Both the position numbers and the translations under genes were made by a program. 10,075 nt of DNA from a virus (Duplodnaviria > Heunggongvirae > Uroviricota > Caudoviricetes): IMG/VR virus record IMGVR_UViG_3300014890_000017. One strand, given 5' to 3'. The notes under the pieces are model-generated. The model was not told the DNA's origin. It worked only from the letters and a program-made list of their open reading frames with translations, and did not search any database. Of the stretch, positions 4,794 through 10,075 are shown piece after piece (position 1 is the first letter of the stretch; each line of letters begins with the position of its first letter).

Positions 4794-4946
4794 TCAGCCC
4801 TCCCATATCTCGTTATCGTTGGCCACATCGCGAGCTTCTTTGCTGACGAAAGCCCACTTAATGCCTTCCTGTAAGGTGCGGAACTTCCAGCTCATGAATC
4901 CGCATGCAGTAACGCAGTACCAACCGTTGATGATTTTCCACTGCAT
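4794..4946 (-). CDS. Small Trp-rich ORF (50 aa), first gene of the leftward operon
   Basis: Hand-translated, not in the ORF track because under 60 aa: MQWKIINGWYCVTACGFMSWKFRTLQEGIKWAFVSKEARDVANDNEIWEG. ATG at 4946 preceded by GAGGTAA about 7 nt upstream; stop TGA at 4794-4796, 2 nt before the next gene's ATG. Confidence 0.35.
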   Translation of the reverse strand: MQWKIINGWYCVTACGFMSWKFRTLQEGIKWAFVSKEARDVANDNEIWEG

Positions 4947-4965
4947 AACTTGTTACCTCGGTCTG

Positions 4966-4980
4966 TTACCGTTGAGGTAA
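4966..4980. promoter_or_regulatory. Operator-like palindrome TTACC-GTTGA-GGTAA (leftward promoter, downstream site)
   Basis: Perfect 5+5+5 inverted repeat read from sequence; an extra TTACC half-site sits at 4953-4957. Confidence 0.6.
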
Positions 4981-5008
4981 TAATTATGCTTATTTGGTTT
5001 GGTGTCAA
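4980..5008 (-). promoter_or_regulatory. Candidate leftward early promoter (PL-like)
   Basis: Minus strand shows consensus -35 TTGACA (plus 5003-5008) followed by an A/T-rich -10 candidate (CATAAT/ATAATT/TAATTA, plus 4981-4988; spacer 14-16 nt, so exact -10 is uncertain). Flanked by operator palindromes on both sides. Confidence 0.45.
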
Positions 5009-5027
5009 TAGATATGAGTTAAAAAAA

Positions 5028-5042
5028 TTACCCGTAAGGTAA
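5028..5042. promoter_or_regulatory. Operator-like palindrome TTACC-CGTAA-GGTAA (leftward promoter, upstream site)
   Basis: Perfect inverted repeat; centre is 62 bp from the centre of the 4966-4980 site. Confidence 0.6.
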
Positions 5043-5052
5043 TCTATCTGGC

Positions 5053-5077
5053 AATAAAAAAGCCGCCATGAGGCGGC
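5053..5077 (-). terminator. Rho-independent terminator downstream of the repressor gene
   Basis: Stem GCCGCC / GGCGGC with loop ATGA (5062-5077); on the minus strand it is followed by TTTTTTATT (plus AATAAAAAA, 5053-5061). Confidence 0.6.
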
Positions 5078-5099
5078 TTACTTGCTGAAAACTATAGTT

Positions 5100-5684
5100 T
5101 TATTGTTTGCTTTTTTCGTTCTGGTTGATGACAAATTCAATGTAACTTTCGATCTTTGCTTTCTCTGTTTCAGGTAACAATGCGTAGCGCGAGCGGTCAT
5201 AGTTGATAGTTGCAGGGTCGTGCGGGTGAATCAGTAGTTCATATCCGTGACGCCCGAATGCAGATGCAACATTCTCCAGGGTGGAAATGGAAACGCTGAC
5301 CTCATTGTTTAACAGGCGGCTGATTGTCACCTGGGCTACGCCGGATGCGCGGTGAAGTTTTCCCTGTGTTGAAAGGTCGCGGCTTTCGCTCATCCAGCGT
5401 TCCAGGTTGTGAGCCGCCAGCTGACCAATGTCGCTTGGTCCGACAGGCTGAAAACCCTCCTGAGAAAGCGAGCGATCGATATCAAGCCAGTTACGTGGTT
5501 TATTGGCGGCAGCTTCAATTTTTCGTGCAACCTGGTCGCCGATAACCTTCTTGCCAAGAGCCCAGCGGTTTACCAGATTTGCCTGAGTTCCAAGTTTTTC
5601 TGCCATCCGCGTCTGAACACCATTGAATTCACGGTCGATCAAGTCGTTGAGATTTTGCCTGCGGACGTCCTGGATACTTTTCAT
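5100..5684 (-). CDS. Prophage repressor candidate with two tandem XRE-type HTH domains (CI-like by position)
   Basis: 194 aa; HTH-like segments NGVQTRMAEKLGTQANLVNRWALGKK and LHRASGVAQVTISRLLNNEVSVSISTLENVASAFG; divergent from a Cro-like gene across an operator-rich intergenic region; no LexA/S24 peptidase-like motif recognised. Confidence 0.7.
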   Translation of the reverse strand: MKSIQDVRRQNLNDLIDREFNGVQTRMAEKLGTQANLVNRWALGKKVIGDQVARKIEAAANKPRNWLDIDRSLSQEGFQPVGPSDIGQLAAHNLERWMSESRDLSTQGKLHRASGVAQVTISRLLNNEVSVSISTLENVASAFGRHGYELLIHPHDPATINYDRSRYALLPETEKAKIESYIEFVINQNEKSKQ

Positions 5685-5739
5685 TTTCTGGAAAATCGCC
5701 TCATATATGAATCAGTAGATGATTCAATTTAAAGCAATA

Positions 5740-5754
5740 TTACCCAACAGGTAA
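5740..5754. promoter_or_regulatory. Operator-like palindrome TTACC-CAACA-GGTAA (divergent region)
   Basis: Perfect inverted repeat in the repressor/cro intergenic region; a degenerate adjacent site gcACC-TCATA-GGTAA lies at 5757-5771. Confidence 0.6.
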
Positions 5755-5784
5755 ATGCACCTCATAGGTAACTATCCTTGATTT

Positions 5785-5813
5785 TTGTTACCTTATGGGT
5801 GAATATTTATTAT
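5785..5813 (+). promoter_or_regulatory. Candidate rightward early promoter (PR-like)
   Basis: -35 TTGTTA (5785-5790), 17-bp spacer, -10 TATTAT (5808-5813); the 5788-5802 operator lies within the spacer. Confidence 0.5.
5788..5802. promoter_or_regulatory. Operator-like palindrome TTACC-TTATG-GGTgA (one mismatch)
   Basis: Near-perfect copy of the TTACC-N5-GGTAA motif overlapping the PR-like promoter; centre 48 bp from the 5740-5754 site. Confidence 0.5.
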
Positions 5814-5838
5814 CTGAAATAAATATCAGGCAATAGCT

Positions 5839-6069
5839 ATGAGCGATAACGGACATTTCGATTTCAAAAAGCACTGGCTTGCACTTACTCCGGATGAGCG
5901 TGAAGCCTTCGCACAGGAAGCCGGAACGACGAGTCACTATATCCAGACTCACTTAACAGGTAAGCGCAAAATGCCAGGTAAAGTATTGATGAATGGGCTT
6001 TTTAAAGCCTGTAAAACAAGACAATGGCTGCGCTCAAAAGCAGAACTGGCATACTTCTTCTACTCATGA
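5839..6069 (+). CDS. Cro-like small HTH regulator (Cro/CI-type, YdaS-like)
   Basis: 76 aa; first gene rightward of the repressor; segment EAFAQEAGTTSHYIQTHLTGKRKMP is HTH-like, resembling Cro/cII-type DNA-binding helices. Confidence 0.65.
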   Translation: MSDNGHFDFKKHWLALTPDEREAFAQEAGTTSHYIQTHLTGKRKMPGKVLMNGLFKACKTRQWLRSKAELAYFFYS

Positions 6070-6090
6070 TATCCAGCTACAACCCTCTGT

Positions 6091-6118
6091 AGACCGCCAC
6101 CCGGCGGTCTTTTCATAT
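6091..6118 (+). terminator. Rho-independent terminator after the cro-like gene (tR1-like position)
   Basis: 8-bp stem AGACCGCC / GGCGGTCT with loop ACCC (6091-6110) followed by TTTCATATCT. Confidence 0.55.
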
Positions 6119-6219
6119 CTATTCGTACCTCAAAGGTAATAAATAACCAAATCTGGTTGATCTTTTTTTTGTGTCAGCACAAAATGACCGTAATCCCAAT
6201 ACTAATAACAGGGCTTACC

Positions 6220-6420
6220 ATGGAAATCATTACACGTATTGATGCCGCAAAGCGCGGACTTAAACGCTACTACACCGGAAAACCATGTAAGCACGGACAT
6301 GACAGTGAACGCTGGGTTTACAACGGACACTGTGTTGAGTGCACCATGGAATCAAACCGTCGTATCAGGGCAGAGATTAAGCAGATCATGATTAATTCCT
6401 CCCCACAACATTCAAGCTGA
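6220..6420 (+). CDS. Small zinc-ribbon protein (66 aa) in the cII position
   Basis: ATG at 6220 (MEIITRIDAAKRG...) chosen over upstream TTG/ATG starts that lack an SD; Cys/His cluster CKHGH ... CVEC suggests a zinc ribbon. Function unknown. Confidence 0.5.
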   Translation: MEIITRIDAAKRGLKRYYTGKPCKHGHDSERWVYNGHCVECTMESNRRIRAEIKQIMINSSPQHSS

Positions 6421-6435
6421 TAGCGGAGATTAATC

Positions 6436-7251
6436 ATGAGCAGACATGCAACAGATTGGGCCTGGGAGACAGATCCAGGTAGCTCGTCATTAAAGCTCAT
6501 ACTGCTCTCGATGGCTGACAGAGCCGATGAATATAACCTCTGCTACCCCAGCATAGAACGCCTCGTTAAAGACACTTGCCTGAATAAAAAAACCGTGCAG
6601 GCCGGGCTTATATCGCTCATGAAAATGGGGCTTATTTCAGATACCGGAGAGAGAAAGGGAGCGACGAAAAGAGTGCGGGTTTTCTCTCTTAATATAACCA
6701 AAAACGGGAACATTAAAGGCAACCGGGAAGGGGGTAATGGACCCGAAAACGGTAATGTTACCGAAAACGGGAATATACCCAAAAACGGGATGTTGAATGA
6801 TCCCAAAAACGGGATGTTGAATGATCCCAAAAACGGGATCCAGAACCAGTCATATAACCAGTCATTTAACCAAGAGAGGGAGAGCAGGACAAAAAGCGGG
6901 GATTCTGTGCCTCATGACCCCGGCGCAAACAACGCCGTGATGAATAACTTTGTTCCTCCTGGTGGGCCAGGGCAATTAGGCAAATTTGTCATGCATGAAC
7001 AATGGCAGCCATCAGATGACTTTCTTCGGAAAAGCTCATTGCAGGGGATCTACCTGGACAGTCTGCCAACGGCACAGGAACTTGCAGAGTTCAGAATTTA
7101 CTGGATGGCTGAGGGTAAGGCATACCATCAGGCACAGTGGGAGCAGAAGCTGGCAAGGCGGCTGCAGATTAGCAGACAGAAGCAATCAACATTACCTGAT
7201 AACAACGTTCCGCACTGGAACAGCCCTGAAGCATGGGAGGATTTCTTGTGA
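6436..7251 (+). CDS. Replication initiator, lambda O-like (N-terminal HTH, internal ori iterons, DnaT-like C-terminus)
   Basis: 271 aa; GGAG SD 7 nt upstream of the ATG; N-terminal HTH-like region (SLKLILLSMADRADEYNLCYPSIERLVKDTCLNKKTVQAGL); low-complexity NG-rich linker encoded by a DNA direct-repeat array; immediately precedes and overlaps (GTGA) a lambda-P homologue. Confidence 0.75.
   Translation: MSRHATDWAWETDPGSSSLKLILLSMADRADEYNLCYPSIERLVKDTCLNKKTVQAGLISLMKMGLISDTGERKGATKRVRVFSLNITKNGNIKGNREGGNGPENGNVTENGNIPKNGMLNDPKNGMLNDPKNGIQNQSYNQSFNQERESRTKSGDSVPHDPGANNAVMNNFVPPGGPGQLGKFVMHEQWQPSDDFLRKSSLQGIYLDSLPTAQELAEFRIYWMAEGKAYHQAQWEQKLARRLQISRQKQSTLPDNNVPHWNSPEAWEDFL
6696..6850. repeat. Iteron array (putative origin of replication) inside the O-like gene
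   Basis: Six copies of the core AAAACGG(G/T)A at 6701, 6746, 6764, 6782, 6806 and 6830, including two perfect tandem 24-bp repeats CCCAAAAACGGGATGTTGAATGAT (6778-6801 and 6802-6825). Confidence 0.7.
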
Positions 7252-8033
7252 ACAACGTTTTTACCGCGATACAAAACCGTGACGGAGAAGCCCTTTCTCG
7301 CATGTCAGGTTATGAGCATCAGTACGTCAACAATGACAATGTGGTGAACATGTCAGCAGAGAGGCTTGTTGATGCCCTTTTTAAACAGCTGAAACAATTG
7401 TTTCCGGCGGCAGTGGTAACCAACCTGAAGACGCCAGAGCAGGAAGTTGCTGCAAAACAGCAGTGGATTGCTGCGTTTGCCGAAGGGGGGATCCGAACCC
7501 GTGAACAGGTTTCTGCTGGTATGCGCCACGCCCGCGCCAGTGAATCTCCGTTCTGGCCGTCGCCTGGGCAATTCATCAAGTGGTGTAAAGACAGCAAGAT
7601 GGTTCTTGGCGTCACCATTGACGATGTGATGGCGGAGTTTCACCGGTACAGCAAGGAAAAAAGTTTATATCCTGGTGGTCCCGAAAGATTCCCGTGGCGA
7701 CATCCGGTTATGTACTGGGTCGTATGTGATACCCGCCGTGCAATGTATCAGCGCCAGCTTAGCGAGATTGAGGTTGAGAAACACGCGCGCAGGCTGCTCG
7801 ATGATTGGGCGAAAAAGGTGGCTTCCGGACAGCAGATACCCGATCCGGTGATCAGCATACAGGCAAAGCCAGAGCCCATGAGTACGCCTCCGGACACAGG
7901 GAGAGATGTTTACCATCCACCAGGGCAAAGTTTCGGGTGCATGCCTAACGCCGCCACCCTGGGGGGAATAACACCGGCGCAGTGGCTGATGGAGGAATAC
8001 AGGCGAGGAAAGGCGGCAGGATTTATCAAGTAA
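7248..8033 (+). CDS. Replication protein P homologue (DnaB helicase loader)
   Basis: Segment WIAAFAEGGIRTREQVSAGMRHARASESPFWPSPGQFIKWCKD aligns from memory with lambda P (WVLAFRENGITTMEQVNAGMRVARRQNRPFLPSPGQFVAWCRE). GTG at 7248 with GGAGG 7 nt upstream preferred over the ORF-track ATG at 7233; GTGA overlap with the O-like stop. Confidence 0.85.
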   Translation: MNNVFTAIQNRDGEALSRMSGYEHQYVNNDNVVNMSAERLVDALFKQLKQLFPAAVVTNLKTPEQEVAAKQQWIAAFAEGGIRTREQVSAGMRHARASESPFWPSPGQFIKWCKDSKMVLGVTIDDVMAEFHRYSKEKSLYPGGPERFPWRHPVMYWVVCDTRRAMYQRQLSEIEVEKHARRLLDDWAKKVASGQQIPDPVISIQAKPEPMSTPPDTGRDVYHPPGQSFGCMPNAATLGGITPAQWLMEEYRRGKAAGFIK

Positions 8034-8038
8034 TACCA

Positions 8039-8058
8039 GCGCGATAGCGCATTTTTTT
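8039..8058 (+). terminator. Weak candidate terminator after the P-like gene
   Basis: Short stem GCGC-GATA-GCGC (8039-8050) followed by A + TTTTTTT (8052-8058); the stem is only 4 bp. Confidence 0.3.
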
Positions 8059-8070
8059 ACGTCTATATGA

Positions 8071-8085
8071 TTACCTGGAAGGTAA
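8071..8085. promoter_or_regulatory. Operator-like palindrome TTACC-TGGAA-GGTAA (distal promoter, upstream site)
   Basis: Perfect inverted repeat; centre is 62 bp from the 8133-8147 site, the same spacing as the leftward-promoter pair. Confidence 0.55.
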
Positions 8086-8104
8086 TAAAATATTCTAATC
8101 TCTA

Positions 8105-8133
8105 TTGATTTCATGTCTTATGTGGTTTTTAAT
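8105..8133 (+). promoter_or_regulatory. Candidate promoter for the distal rightward operon
   Basis: -35 TTGATT (8105-8110), 17-bp spacer, -10 TTTAAT (8128-8133); operators lie upstream of the -35 and across the -10/+1. Confidence 0.45.
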
Positions 8134-8147
8134 TACCTGAGGGGTAA
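8133..8147. promoter_or_regulatory. Operator-like palindrome TTACC-TGAGG-GGTAA overlapping the -10/+1 and the SD of the next gene
   Basis: Perfect inverted repeat ending 3 nt before the ATG at 8151; its central GAGGGG also serves as the ribosome-binding site. Confidence 0.55.
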
Positions 8148-8150
8148 ATC

Positions 8151-8498
8151 ATGAGAAAACAGATACAGGCTCTTGGTCGACTCAAAACAGGCCAGATGAA
8201 CAAAACAGAATCTGCGTATTGCCAGCACCTTGAGCTGCGTAAACGTGCAGGGGAAATCGCCTGGTATCGATTCGAGGGTATCAAGCTGCGGTTAGCTAAT
8301 AACACGTTCTATACGCCCGATTTCGCTGTGATGCTCGCCACCGGCGAGATGGAGCTGCACGAAGTGAAAGGGGGATTCTGGACCGATGACGCCAGAGTGA
8401 AAACCAAAGTCGCCGCAGATCAGTATCCGTTCCGAATCATCGGGGTAACGGTTAAACCAAAGAAAGCAGGTGGTGGCTGGAACATCGAAGAGTTCTGA
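8151..8498 (+). CDS. DUF1064 / VRR-NUC-like small PD-(D/E)XK-fold protein
   Basis: 115 aa; LELRKRAGEI ... YTPDFAV ... ELHEVKGG matches the conserved pattern of phage DUF1064/VRR-NUC nuclease-like proteins (D ... E-x-K). Confidence 0.65.
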   Translation: MRKQIQALGRLKTGQMNKTESAYCQHLELRKRAGEIAWYRFEGIKLRLANNTFYTPDFAVMLATGEMELHEVKGGFWTDDARVKTKVAADQYPFRIIGVTVKPKKAGGGWNIEEF

Positions 8499-8559
8499 AT
8501 CGACGATCTATTTAGTTATCAATGTAATCAATAAGTTATGTGGATAAGCGAGGGTAAAG

Positions 8560-9141
8560 ATGGAAAGTAATATCAAAGGGTTAGTTGCCGCCGGGCATGA
8601 GATGGCTTCGGAACTGAAAGCAGAATGTGGTGCCGTTGATATGCGTAGTGTGGCAAAGCTGATCAGCGATTTGGCAACGCAACTGGAAGTGCAACTGGTG
8701 CGTGCTAATGCGCTGGCAGCGGAGAATGCAAAGCTGAAGACAGCACATCCTCAACCATTCGGACCTGAAATGATGAAGGCTCTTGATGCGTATGAGAAGT
8801 ATCAGGATGAAGTGCCGGAGGCTGGAATGCTTGATGCATTTTTCATCTTGCGCGACAGCATCCGTGTTGAAACCCCAGCCACCGACGCTTTCCTGGCTGA
8901 AGTACGTGCGGAGGCTCGCAACGAGGGGATTAACTATACCGCAAGCCGTCTTGCTGCTGCTTTCAACCACGGATTTATCAATAAGTCTTTACGTGAAGTT
9001 TTCGACGTTACACGCATGATTCTGTCAGCGAAAGAAGAGTTGGCTAATGAACCGCACCCGATTGATGGCCTGTCCGGTGAATATGCGGAGAAATCCCTTG
9101 AAGAATGGGCGGAACAGATTCGCAAAGGAGCTGACAAGTGA
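8560..9141 (+). CDS. Hypothetical phage protein (193 aa)
   Basis: ATG at 8560 with GAGGGT SD 4-5 nt upstream; acidic, alpha-helical-looking composition; no family recognised. Confidence 0.55.
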   Translation: MESNIKGLVAAGHEMASELKAECGAVDMRSVAKLISDLATQLEVQLVRANALAAENAKLKTAHPQPFGPEMMKALDAYEKYQDEVPEAGMLDAFFILRDSIRVETPATDAFLAEVRAEARNEGINYTASRLAAAFNHGFINKSLREVFDVTRMILSAKEELANEPHPIDGLSGEYAEKSLEEWAEQIRKGADK

Positions 9142-9548
9142 AGAAGATGATTTTTGTCGCGGCATTGTTGGTGAATATCCAACAAGTGCATGCTTCAGCA
9201 GCTATTGTAGCCTCTACCGCCGCGACTACGGCTGCTGTAGCTGCTGCGAACTCTGCGAATATCGCAAACCAACAGGCACAGCGTGCTGCTAATGCATCAG
9301 CCAGCGTTCACTCAATCACCATTAAGAGCAGTAAGCAAAATCTGGGATTCATAACGTGCGGCACGCGTTCTAATGAAGCTGTAGGTTCACTTGGATGTAC
9401 GGTATATGGGGGTAGTGAGAATAGAGAAATTCCATGGAAAACGTGGCCCGGATACGTTCTTGGCTCGAAGCTCCCGGCCAGTTATGAAGTAAACGCCGTA
9501 TCGTTTGATCACTATAACGGCGTGGCAACGGTCTATTTTGCATATTGA
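9138..9548 (+). CDS. Predicted secreted/periplasmic small protein with N-terminal signal peptide
   Basis: GTG start at 9138 (AAGGAG 8 nt upstream; GTGA overlap with the upstream stop). N-terminus MKKMIFVAALLVNIQQVHA-SAA is a typical Sec signal with an AxA cleavage site; Ala/Thr-rich low-complexity segment then a two-Cys domain. Confidence 0.6.
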   Translation: MKKMIFVAALLVNIQQVHASAAIVASTAATTAAVAAANSANIANQQAQRAANASASVHSITIKSSKQNLGFITCGTRSNEAVGSLGCTVYGGSENREIPWKTWPGYVLGSKLPASYEVNAVSFDHYNGVATVYFAY

Positions 9549-9556
9549 GGCTCCGC

Positions 9557-10075
9557 ATGAAATTCTCCAAATTTTCTGAGTTGGTGAATCGTATTTTGTC
9601 CAACAACCACAGCCATCGTCGCGATATGGATGTAACGATCGTTGTTCATTCGCCTGGCAGCATTGGTTCAACACCCTCAGTTGAGGTTCAGTCAATTCAC
9701 GCTGGTTTTGATTGGGATTCCGGGAAAGTGCTGATTTTCCCAGCACAGCCACTGACCACGCTAACACCAGAACAGATTACTGATATTACTGATAGTGTGC
9801 GCAAAGGTCAGTCCTGGCACGCATATCAGGAATACAAGAAGCATAAAGAGCAGTTGGAAAAATTATCGATTGAACTTGATACCGCAAAACAGCGCATTGC
9901 AGAGCTGGAGAGCAATCGCGCGGCGCTGGCGGCGGAGCATGGTATTCAGATTGCAATAAATGAACTGCTTGCTCTGGCCCCGCGTCTGGATAAACGAGCG
10001 GTGGATGCACTCTCTGTGGCTGTGGAGCACCTGTGTAAACTGATTAAGAAGGAGGCAGTCAGTGAGCAAAATTAA
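9557..10075 (+). CDS. Hypothetical phage protein (172 aa) with C-terminal coiled-coil-like region
   Basis: ATG at 9557 with GAGG 6 nt upstream (ORF-track start at 9545 is TTG and overlaps the upstream stop); C-terminal half (EQLEKLSIELDTAKQRIAELESNRAALAAEHG) looks coiled-coil; stop TAA at 10073-10075. Confidence 0.55.
   Translation: MKFSKFSELVNRILSNNHSHRRDMDVTIVVHSPGSIGSTPSVEVQSIHAGFDWDSGKVLIFPAQPLTTLTPEQITDITDSVRKGQSWHAYQEYKKHKEQLEKLSIELDTAKQRIAELESNRAALAAEHGIQIAINELLALAPRLDKRAVDALSVAVEHLCKLIKKEAVSEQN

What the first reader, a model, noticed from the sequence alone, without database searches (positions are those of the whole stretch)
9138..9548. Signal-peptide protein encoded in the repressor-gated distal operon
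A Sec signal peptide with an AxA site, an Ala/Thr-rich low-complexity linker and a compact two-Cys domain is unusual among cytoplasmic phage early proteins. It could be a superinfection-exclusion or envelope-modifying factor, or a moron.
Basis: partly seen in the sequence, partly recalled or inferred. Interest (0 to 1): 0.5.

Follow-up and report, generated by a model that had tools for sequence, protein, structure and literature searches.

The report
Exported small phage protein, function unknown
This prophage gene really does encode a small protein that is almost certainly exported to the bacterial periplasm; it belongs to a rare, uncharacterised family that moves between very different enterobacterial phages, and what it does there (perhaps blocking rival phages) is still untested.

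Summary
Window 9138-9548 (+) is a real 136-aa gene under purifying selection. It has a GTG start behind a conserved AAGGAG, an N-terminal Sec-type signal peptide (MKK / MIFVAALLVNI / QQVHA|S), a 38-residue Ala-rich linker and an ~80-residue C-terminal domain with two invariant cysteines.

The signal peptide is kept in 99 of 102 full-length homologues, even where the sequence has diverged to ~35% identity. The linker is variable or absent.

AlphaFold models the domain confidently (pLDDT 88.6) as a small alpha+beta fold. It has no significant match in the PDB or BFVD, and no Pfam, NCBIfam or PADLOC hit; the only family match is PHROG 8805, function unknown.

The gene is a rare accessory gene (97 of 5426 complete E. 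coli genomes). It sits in the early gene blocks of five unrelated phage types:
- epsilon15-like prophage at guaA (this window)
- P1-like phage-plasmids
- Mu-like prophages
- the virulent myovirus Av-05
- 45-kb phages

It is tightly packed with its neighbours, has no promoter or terminator of its own and has ordinary GC content, so the 'moron' reading is not supported.

An early-expressed periplasmic effector acting on a host envelope component is the best inference, with superinfection exclusion the leading guess. That function is untested.

The parts
9125..9130 (+). Shine-Dalgarno AAGGAG, 7 nt upstream of the GTG start
   Evidence: Sequence. The same SD and spacing are kept upstream of homologues in Av-05 and Mu-like prophages, despite different upstream genes.
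9138..9548 (+). Whole ORF: 136-aa exported protein (identical to WP_000738196.1, PHROG 8805). GTG start overlaps the stop of the upstream ORF (GTGA).
   Evidence: dN/dS is 0.1-0.5 overall.
9138..9194 (+). Signal peptide, residues 1-19: MKK / MIFVAALLVNI / QQVHA. Predicted signal peptidase I cut after Ala19.
   Evidence: Equivalent peptides with AxA-type sites are present in all diverged homologues.
9195..9308 (+). Ala-rich low-complexity linker, residues 20-57. Its length varies and it is absent in distant homologues. A conserved aliphatic V/I pair follows the predicted cleavage site.
   Evidence: AlphaFold gives only a low-confidence helix here (pLDDT 54-66).
9309..9545 (+). Conserved C-terminal alpha+beta domain, residues 58-136: four beta strands, one helix, two beta strands, ending in the conserved C-terminus VYFxY.
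   Evidence: AlphaFold pLDDT 88.6, pTM 0.74. Invariant G70, T73, C74, G75, C87, P104, Y116, D124, T131, Y133, F134, Y136. dN/dS 0.07 for residues 98-136.
9357..9398 (+). Codons of Cys74 (9357-9359) to Cys87 (9396-9398). The two invariant cysteines bracket a sequence-variable 12-residue loop and probably form a disulfide.
   Evidence: Invariance. The loop positions have high entropy. C74 ends strand 1 and C87 begins strand 3 in the model. The disulfide itself is inferred.
8560..9141 (+). Upstream co-oriented gene (PHROG 614, unknown function), translationally coupled to the target
   Evidence: It is the upstream neighbour in 38 of 63 loci.
9557..10075 (+). Downstream co-oriented gene (PHROG 6026 N-terminal domain plus Ead/Ea22-type coiled coil). 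It runs off the window. It is co-inherited with the target, including in Av-05.
5785..5813 (+). PR-like sigma-70 promoter (TTGTTA-17-TATTAT) that probably drives the rightward early operon containing the gene. The operator-like repeats at 5742-5754, 5759-5771 and 5788-5800 lie across it.
5100..5684 (-). CI-like HTH repressor gene, divergent from the rightward operon
   Evidence: Pfam HTH_3, E = 1.2e-9. RefSeq annotation in VR50.

Best explanation
The gene encodes a small secreted protein of a phage-borne family confined, as far as sampled, to phages of Enterobacterales.

Proposed mechanism:
1. It is transcribed as part of the repressor-controlled rightward early operon, so it is made after induction or infection rather than in the quiescent lysogen.
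2. The precursor is translated from GTG 9138.
3. The N-terminal signal peptide targets it to the Sec translocon.
4. Signal peptidase I cuts it after Ala19.
5. It is released into the periplasm.
6. There the two invariant cysteines (C74, C87) form a DsbA-type disulfide that closes a variable loop on a compact alpha+beta domain.
7. The domain then binds a host envelope component that is common to Enterobacterales and independent of the carrier phage's own receptor.

Because the protein is made only after the phage's own DNA is inside, the most likely benefit is protection of the already-infected cell. Superinfection exclusion, in the manner of T4 Spackle or P1 Sim, is the leading candidate.

Shown here:
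- the gene is real and under purifying selection
- the signal-peptide features are present and conserved
- the cysteines are invariant
- the fold is predicted confidently and has no known relative
- the gene sits in early-operon contexts in five phage types

Inferred: the export itself, the cleavage site, the disulfide, the expression timing and the target.

Sub-confidences: exported to the periplasm about 0.85; soluble after cleavage about 0.7; superinfection exclusion as the function about 0.3.
For: Signal peptide:
- The n, h and c regions with V-H-A at -3 to -1 are present.
- The feature is kept in 99 of 102 homologues.
- It survives with a completely different sequence in homologues of 35-50% identity, such as KW1E (...TSTAANA|VVITKP) and KLB16 (...TTAANA|AVIV).
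- Other annotators independently flagged an export signal.
- The GTG start with its SD is conserved.

Domain:
- The cysteine pair is invariant and the core is strongly constrained (dN/dS 0.07). The loops at 57-69 and 87-97 are much less constrained (0.77 and 0.52).
- The AlphaFold model is confident (pLDDT 88.6).

Context:
- The gene is always co-oriented inside early or semi-essential gene blocks: this window and VR50, P1-like plasmids, Mu-like prophages between the transposase genes and gemA/mor, Av-05 and 45-kb phages.
- No gene neighbour is shared across all contexts, so it can act as a single-gene module.
- Its carriers are phages of different morphologies (podovirus-like, P1-like and rV5-like myoviruses, Mu-like). 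From general knowledge these use different receptors, which argues for a general host target.
- Promoter, operators and repressor lie upstream, and no promoter or terminator hit lies near the gene.
Against: There is no experimental or homology-based evidence for any function:
- Pfam, NCBIfam, PADLOC and PDB sequence searches are all empty.
- No PHROG of a known exclusion protein is hit.

Other weaknesses:
- The signal-peptide call rests on a home-made heuristic plus conservation, not on SignalP.
- The Ala-rich segment after the cleavage site is mildly hydrophobic (Kyte-Doolittle about 1.5), so some membrane association cannot be excluded.
- Known receptor-blocking exclusion genes sit beside receptor-binding genes. 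This one does not.
- Expression timing is inferred from gene order only.
Confidence: 0.4

Rival explanations
1. Lysogenic-conversion 'moron'. The protein is made constitutively from the prophage and changes the host surface or fitness (as Bor and Lom of lambda do), rather than acting during lytic growth.
For: It is an exported protein in a swappable accessory slot. A near-identical prophage in E. coli E1 carries different genes at this position. The gene is rare: 97 of 5426 genomes.
Against: - No promoter-like or terminator-like site lies near the gene.
- The start overlaps the upstream stop, and only 8 nt separate it from the next gene.
- GC content is 0.48-0.49, like the flanks.
- Homologues occur in the virulent Vequintavirinae phage Av-05 and, just upstream of the terminase gene, in 45-kb phages isolated on laboratory hosts.
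Confidence: 0.1
2. A diverged phage copy of the enterobacterial DUF1471 / YhcN (BhsA, McbA, SrfN) or RcsF-like periplasmic stress-protein fold. It would modulate envelope stress signalling or biofilm behaviour.
For: - Both families are small, Sec-exported and alpha+beta, and both are typical of Enterobacterales.
- The C-terminal 'SY-V-a-S....aTVY' stretch resembles DUF1471 'GA-Y-I-s....tA-iY' and is the only segment hhalign aligns.
- DUF1471 is structurally similar to the disulfide-containing sensor RcsF (PMC4092069).
Against: - hhalign probability is only 4.3%.
- None of the 29 family members hits Pfam DUF1471, even at E <= 10.
- DUF1471 domains lack cysteines, whereas this family has an invariant pair.
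Confidence: 0.1
3. A membrane-tethered protein rather than a soluble periplasmic one. The N-terminus would act either as an uncleaved signal anchor or as a lipoprotein signal, with the Ala-rich segment as a stalk holding the domain away from the membrane.
For: - Residues 4-37 are moderately hydrophobic throughout (19-residue Kyte-Doolittle windows 1.5-1.6).
- The P1-plasmid subfamily (P0075) contains a lipobox-like LSAC.
- AlphaFold draws residues 2-54 as one long helix, although at low confidence.
Against: - The strongly hydrophobic core is only 11 residues long and is followed by N, Q, Q, H and an AxA-type site.
- The lipobox cysteine is replaced by Ser in sister sequences P0099, P0100 and P0102, and is absent from the window protein.
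- Distant homologues have no Ala-rich segment at all.
Confidence: 0.12
4. A periplasmic regulator of the phage's own lysis or of envelope integrity. It could act as an antiholin or lysis-inhibition-type sensor like the periplasmic domain of T4 RI, or as an inhibitor of a host periplasmic hydrolase or protease.
For: An exported protein made before lysis could act on holin, endolysin or spanin periplasmic parts. In the 45-kb phages it is followed by small two-TM proteins.
Against: The carrier phages belong to unrelated groups, and the gene is never adjacent to the annotated holin or endolysin genes. In Mu-like prophages it lies about 2.5 kb upstream of them, with gemA and mor in between. It shows no similarity to any lysis PHROG.
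Confidence: 0.1
5. Not exported at all. The hydrophobic N-terminus would be a chance feature or a buried helix of a cytoplasmic protein.
For: No dedicated predictor (SignalP, DeepTMHMM) could be run. Two other window ORFs also pass the crude test.
Against: The signal-like N-terminus is kept in 99 of 102 homologues while its sequence is not conserved. This is the pattern expected of a targeting signal, not of a folded core. An invariant cysteine pair also fits an oxidising compartment.
Confidence: 0.05

Closest known systems
T4 Spackle (Sp, gene 61.3), a periplasmic superinfection-exclusion protein (comparison from general knowledge)
   Same: It is a small protein of about 100 aa with a cleavable Sec signal peptide. 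It is made early in infection, is released into the periplasm, works as a single gene and protects the infected cell from secondary phages.
   Different: There is no sequence relationship: no exclusion PHROG was hit. Spackle is all-helical, whereas this model is alpha+beta with six strands. Spackle's target is the T4-type tail lysozyme, whereas this family rides on phages of at least five unrelated types.
P1 Sim (superimmunity) protein (comparison from general knowledge)
   Same: It is a phage-encoded precursor processed in a Sec-dependent manner to a periplasmic form that blocks a post-adsorption step. The present family is frequent on P1-like phage-plasmids.
   Different: Sim is much larger, about 25 kDa. 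tblastn of the query against the phage collection found no match in any P1 record. The locus in P1-like plasmids is the variable Ead/Ea22-DUF551 region upstream of hot and humD, not the sim locus.
Cor (phi80, N15, T1) and Llp (T5), receptor-blocking outer-membrane lipoproteins (comparison from general knowledge)
   Same: They are small exported phage proteins. Llp carries a disulfide and is expressed early. They prevent superinfection by masking FhuA.
   Different: They require a lipobox cysteine and are encoded beside the tail or receptor-binding genes. The window protein has no lipobox and lies among replication and accessory genes. No sequence or fold match was found.
DUF1471 / YhcN family (BhsA, McbA, SrfN, YahO, YdgH) and RcsF
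   Different: The profile-profile probability is 4% and there is no Pfam hit. This family has an extra N-terminal beta-hairpin unit with an invariant cysteine pair. DUF1471 has no cysteines (PMC4092069).
HXS bacterial defence system (periplasmic effector that blocks phage DNA entry; PMC13128918, seen)
   Same: The concept is the same: a signal-peptide-bearing periplasmic effector acting on incoming phage at the envelope.
   Different: HXS is host-encoded, needs maturation by a radical-SAM enzyme and has His-x-Ser repeats. None of these features is present here. The comparison is conceptual only.

Membership tests
PHROG 8805 (phage protein family, unknown function) | Full-length match to the family profile | tested here: met
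   E = 7.3e-86, residues 1-136 against profile positions 1-136.
Sec / signal peptidase I secretory precursor | Positively charged n-region, hydrophobic h-region of 7-15 residues, polar c-region with small residues at -3 and -1 | tested here: met
   MKK / MIFVAALLVNI / QQVHA|S. Met by 99 of 102 homologues.
Sec / signal peptidase I secretory precursor | No lipobox cysteine at +1 and no twin-arginine motif | tested here: met
   There is no Cys before residue 74 and no RR in the n-region. The LSAC of the P0075 subgroup is not conserved.
Sec / signal peptidase I secretory precursor | Demonstrated translocation and cleavage | not testable with these tools
   This needs PhoA or Bla fusions, cell fractionation or N-terminal mass spectrometry.
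Cor / Llp receptor-blocking lipoproteins | Lipoprotein signal with a lipobox cysteine | tested here: not met
Cor / Llp receptor-blocking lipoproteins | Gene adjacent to tail-fibre or receptor-binding genes | tested here: not met
   In all contexts examined the neighbours are replication genes, Ead/Ea22, DUF551, methylase or early Mu genes.
Cor / Llp receptor-blocking lipoproteins | Sequence or fold similarity | tested here: not met
T4 Spackle | Sequence similarity and helical-bundle fold | tested here: not met
   No sequence hit. The model has six strands and one helix.
DUF1471 / YhcN (PF07338) | Match to the Pfam model or to a profile of E. coli paralogues | tested here: not met
   0 of 29 members hit DUF1471 at E <= 10. 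hhalign probability is 4.3%.
DUF1471 / YhcN (PF07338) | Shared fold (four-stranded 2-4-3-1 sheet plus helix) | tested here: inconclusive
Moron (autonomous lysogenic-conversion cassette) | Own promoter and terminator flanking the gene | tested here: not met
   The gene overlaps the upstream stop and ends 8 nt before the next gene. In the 4800-10075 scan, the only + strand promoter-like site is at 5785-5813, and no terminator-like site lies downstream of 7222 on either strand.
Moron (autonomous lysogenic-conversion cassette) | Base composition different from the surrounding phage genes | tested here: not met
   GC is 0.48-0.49 across 9001-9600, against 0.46-0.51 in the flanking windows.
Moron (autonomous lysogenic-conversion cassette) | Expression from the repressed prophage | not testable with these tools
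   This needs RNA-seq or a reporter in a lysogen.
Known anti-phage defence proteins (PADLOC-DB) | Match to any defence-system model | tested here: not met
   0 families at E <= 1.

The most novel reading that the evidence does not exclude
The family is the founding example of a new, structurally unprecedented class of portable single-gene periplasmic effectors. In this reading it is a disulfide-stapled mini-domain whose variable Cys-bracketed loop recognises a conserved Enterobacterales envelope component. Candidates include the DNA-entry route, or an envelope-stress sensor such as the Rcs or sigma-E machinery, given the OMP-like aromatic C-terminus ...VYFxY. It would give receptor-independent exclusion of, or tolerance to, secondary phages, and it would be traded freely between temperate, transposable, plasmid-borne and virulent phages.
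Probability: 0.2. Interest if true: 0.65.

Novelty: new variant of a known kind. Interest (0 to 1): 0.38.

Why it matters
Nearly all early accessory genes of phages encode cytoplasmic proteins, and only a handful of exported ones have a known function (for example Spackle, Sim, Llp and Cor).

This is a small exported protein with no known fold relative. It has been kept under purifying selection while moving between five unrelated phage lineages. It is therefore a cheap and well-defined candidate for a new envelope-level phage-phage or phage-host interaction.

If it blocks infection independently of the receptor, it would matter for how phage cocktails are designed against E. coli. It would also help explain why P1-like phage-plasmids and prophages carry it.

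If it has no phenotype, it is one more ORFan. On present evidence it is a solid but modest lead.

Tried and rejected
Searches that found nothing:
- Pfam, NCBIfam, PADLOC and PDB sequence searches with the single protein and with profiles.
- HMMER search of 1.84 billion cluster representatives with the C-terminal domain. It gave 15 hits at E <= 0.001, about ten of them true family members. The five long multi-stretch hits look like low-complexity noise.
- Scan of 185,579 species-representative genomes. It found one locus: a 3.2-kb contig labelled as an Actinomycetes MAG at 88% identity, probably mis-binned coliphage DNA. Only one peptide pattern was used, so sensitivity was limited.
- Literature searches for the accession, the PHROG number and 'prophage exported protein' returned 0 papers. 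A broader search on exported exclusion proteins found nothing about this family.

Structure:
- The first AlphaFold run, on a shallow alignment of near-identical sequences, failed (pLDDT 43.6). It was rescued by a diverse alignment trimmed to the domain.
- The AlphaFold database library was not available.

Hypotheses tested and dropped:
- DUF1471 / YhcN relationship. I built an alignment of seven E. coli K-12 paralogues and ran hhalign. The probability was 4.3%, so this is rejected as a membership claim and kept only as a weak lead.
- Lipoprotein. The lipobox occurs in only one subgroup and is not conserved.
- Slippage-prone tandem repeats in the DNA encoding the linker. None were found.
- A conserved functional partner gene. 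The upstream (38 of 63 loci) and downstream (41 of 71 loci) neighbours are shared only within the closely related block, and are absent from Mu-like, P0075-type and 45-kb phage contexts.
- Positive selection in the loops. dN/dS rises to 0.5-0.8 but never exceeds 1.
Full report
**1. What is at 9138-9548**

The ORF listing and the raw sequence show one ORF of 136 codons on the + strand with exactly the reported coordinates. The start is GTG 9138. AAGGAG (9125-9130) lies 7 nt upstream, and the GTG overlaps the TGA of the upstream ORF (GTGA). The next gene starts 8 nt after the stop.

RefSeq annotates the identical protein, WP_000738196.1, with the same start in E. coli VR50 and on plasmid pDEC12A-1. 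The SD-7nt-GTG arrangement recurs in Av-05 and in Mu-like prophages behind unrelated upstream sequences. In Av-05 the in-frame ATG three codons downstream is replaced by ATC. The GTG is therefore the real start, and the MKK n-region belongs to the protein.

Pairwise dN/dS among five homologues is 0.1-0.66. It falls to 0.07 in residues 98-136 and 0.03 in the GFITCG motif. The long antisense ORFs are not kept in homologues. This is a genuine coding gene.

**2.

(a) Signal peptide.
- The n-region is MKK (+2), the h-region is MIFVAALLVNI and the c-region is QQVHA, giving V-H-A at -3 to -1 before Ser20. There is no lipobox and no twin arginine.
- I could not run SignalP, so I wrote a crude von Heijne-type test. 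It passes 99 of 102 full-length family members. The three failures are sequences annotated from the internal ATG.
- Among the 54 window ORFs of at least 60 aa, 3 pass. The target scores highest by far.
- The N-terminus stays signal-like in homologues whose sequence there is unrelated. Examples are KW1E MKKIVIALSLALLTSTAANA|VVITKP, KLB16 ...FTTAANA|AVIV, P0059 ...SGTARA|VVITKP and P0070 ...ASPAQA|VVVAA.
- The KLB16 depositors independently noted a signal peptide. UniProt names some members 'Prophage exported protein'.

(b) Linker. Residues 20-57 contain 17 Ala plus Ser, Asn, Thr, Val and Gln. The segment varies in length: it is 16 residues longer in P0099 (152 aa against 136) and absent from the 45-kb-phage homologues. 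No DNA tandem repeat underlies it.

(c) Two-Cys domain. C74 and C87 are invariant, together with G70, T73, G75, P104, Y116, D124, T131, Y133, F134 and Y136.

'Ala-rich' is more accurate than 'Ala/Thr-rich'.

**3. Structure**

A first AlphaFold run on a shallow alignment failed (pLDDT 43.6). I then collected diverged relatives in two steps:
- a HMMER scan of 1.84 billion cluster representatives with the C-terminal domain;
- a profile search of the 5.8-billion-cluster database, which returned 112 proteins.

The domain (residues 57-136) modelled confidently with these (pLDDT 88.6, pTM 0.74). In full-length numbering the elements are b1 69-74, b2 80-82, b3 86-91, b4 94-99, helix 103-111, b5 117-124 and b6 129-135.

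C74 ends b1 and C87 begins b3. A disulfide would therefore close the 12-residue loop between them. This is inferred, because I had no access to the coordinates. That loop and the 87-97 turn are the most variable parts of the domain, in entropy and in dN/dS (0.24 and 0.52, against 0.07 in the core). Nothing exceeds 1.

Fold searches gave nothing significant:
- Foldseek against PDB: best E 0.23.
- BFVD: only the protein's own KW1E homologue.
- The AlphaFold database library was unavailable.

**4. Family and distribution**

There is no Pfam, NCBIfam, PADLOC or PDB sequence hit. The only family match is PHROG 8805, function unknown (E = 7e-86).

The family is small: about ten 50%-identity clusters among 1.84 billion representatives. 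The named sources are Escherichia, Salmonella, Shigella, Citrobacter, Cronobacter, Rahnella and Klebsiella/Escherichia phages.

It occurs in 97 of 5426 complete E. coli genomes, at 47 chromosomal and 54 plasmid places. All 66 plasmid hits in PLSDB are non-mobilisable, and those listed are 85-110 kb in size.

**5. Genomic context**

The window is a prophage integrated next to guaA. In the equivalent prophage of VR50 the downstream structural genes are epsilon15-like: Bbp16 cement protein and gp10 'capsid staple'. The window layout is:
- integrase at 1-1251
- a leftward block with DUF1382, MT-A70 methylase, PerC, AlpA, RecT and a PDDEXK nuclease
- a CI-like HTH repressor at 5100-5684 (-)
- a PR-like promoter at 5785-5813, overlapped by three operator-like ACC-N6-GGTAA repeats
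- a cro-like gene, followed by a terminator-like hairpin at 6091-6110
- the O/DnaT-like and P replication genes
- DUF1064
- a PHROG 614 gene
- the target
- an Ead/Ea22-type gene

No promoter-like or terminator-like site lies near the target. Its GC content equals that of its flanks. 'Repressor-gated distal operon' is therefore a fair description. A self-contained moron is not.

In the near-identical prophage of strain E1 the slot holds ead/Ea22 plus DUF4752 instead, so this is a swappable accessory position.

The same gene, or a diverged homologue, also sits in four other settings:
- in the variable Ead/Ea22-DUF551-DUF968 region of P1-like phage-plasmids, upstream of hot, humD and phd/doc
- in the early semi-essential region of Mu-like prophages, between the transposase/ATPase genes and gemA/mor
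- in an early-looking block of small genes in the virulent Vequintavirinae phage Av-05
- just upstream of the large terminase gene in 45-kb phages (KW1E_UTAR, KLB16 and a Logan contig)

In every case it is co-oriented with its neighbours.

A neighbour census over 71 loci found no partner common to all contexts. The PHROG 614 gene lies upstream in 38 of 63 loci. The PHROG 6026/Ead gene lies downstream in 41 of 71 loci, including Av-05, where it is 61% identical. These form a co-inherited block only within the closely related 136-aa subgroup.

**6. How it most likely works**

Shown:
- a real, selected gene
- a conserved Sec-type signal with an AxA-type site
- an invariant cysteine pair
- a confidently predicted compact domain
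- placement in early operons of five phage types

Inferred:
- transcription from PR after derepression
- Sec export, with signal peptidase I cleavage after Ala19
- release into the periplasm
- DsbA-dependent disulfide formation
- binding of a host envelope component

A protein made only after the phage genome has entered cannot help that entry. Its possible roles are therefore narrow:
- excluding secondary phages
- protecting progeny from debris
- regulating lysis
- tuning envelope stress
- lysogenic conversion

The carriers are phages of different morphologies. From general knowledge these use different receptors, which argues against a receptor mask tailored to one phage and for a general host target. 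I therefore rank a Spackle/Sim-like periplasmic exclusion function first, at about 0.3. Export itself I put at about 0.85. All functional readings remain untested.

**7. Rivals**

- Moron: disfavoured, because the gene has no promoter or terminator, is tightly packed with its neighbours, has normal GC content and occurs in virulent phages.
- Membrane-tethered or lipoprotein. The hydrophobic core is only 11 residues long and is followed by N, Q, Q and H. The LSAC lipobox of one subgroup is replaced by LSAS in sister sequences.
- Lysis regulator: the gene is never adjacent to lysis genes.
- Not exported: contradicted by the conservation pattern of the N-terminus.

**8. Novelty and verdict**

Exported phage accessory proteins are a known kind. 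This family is uncharacterised, has no detectable sequence or fold relative, and is unusually promiscuous across phage lineages.

I rate it a new variant of a known kind, with interest about 0.38. It is a clean and inexpensive experimental lead, but no evidence yet points to a surprising mechanism.

Noticed in passing
window 6690-6842: There are six 24-nt iteron-like direct repeats (core CCCAAAAACGGGA, spacings 18-45 nt) inside the O/DnaT-like replication gene (6436-7251). They encode the repeated PKNGMLND peptide. This is probably the phage replication origin, as in lambda O.
   Followed up: partly
window 5742-5813: Three operator-like copies of ACC-N6-GGTAA (5742-5754, 5759-5771, and 5788-5800 inverted) overlap the PR-like promoter at 5785-5813, between the CI-like and cro-like genes.
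   Followed up: partly
window 9557-10075, L004 4420-4950: The downstream gene (PHROG 6026 N-terminal domain fused to an Ead/Ea22-type coiled coil) travels with the exported-protein gene in 41 of 71 loci. This includes the virulent phage Av-05, where it is 61% identical. The two may form a two-gene block. The partner is absent from Mu-like, P0075-type and 45-kb phage contexts.
   Followed up: partly
L018 10057-11144 (E. coli E1), compared with window 8560-9548: A prophage about 97.7% identical over most of the window (93% of it covered, from the integrase onward) carries ead/Ea22 plus DUF4752 in place of the PHROG 614 gene and the exported-protein gene. This slot is a recombination-swappable accessory cassette site.
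   Followed up: partly
L002 4246-4452, L010 6339-6527, L003 4233-4737: In the 45-kb phages the exported-protein gene is followed by one to three very small genes encoding predicted membrane or signal-peptide proteins, directly upstream of the large terminase gene. Their function is unknown.
   Followed up: no
residues +1 to +5 after the predicted cleavage site (window 9195-9209 and homologues): The first residues of the predicted mature protein keep an aliphatic V/I pair across the family (SAAIV, VVITK, AVIVQ, AIIAA, VVVAV, NVIIS), even where the rest of the linker is absent. I have no explanation for this. It could be a strand that docks onto the domain or onto a partner.
   Followed up: no
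L080 (JAFAFN010000164.1): The only hit among 185,579 species-representative genomes is a 3.2-kb contig of an 'Actinomycetes bacterium' MAG, 88% identical to the E. coli gene. It is probably a mis-binned coliphage fragment.
   Followed up: no
window 6091-6110: A strong terminator-like hairpin (8 bp stem with 6 GC pairs, followed by a T run) lies directly after the cro-like gene and upstream of the replication genes, at a tR1-like position. No N-like or Q-like antiterminator was identified in the window.
   Followed up: no
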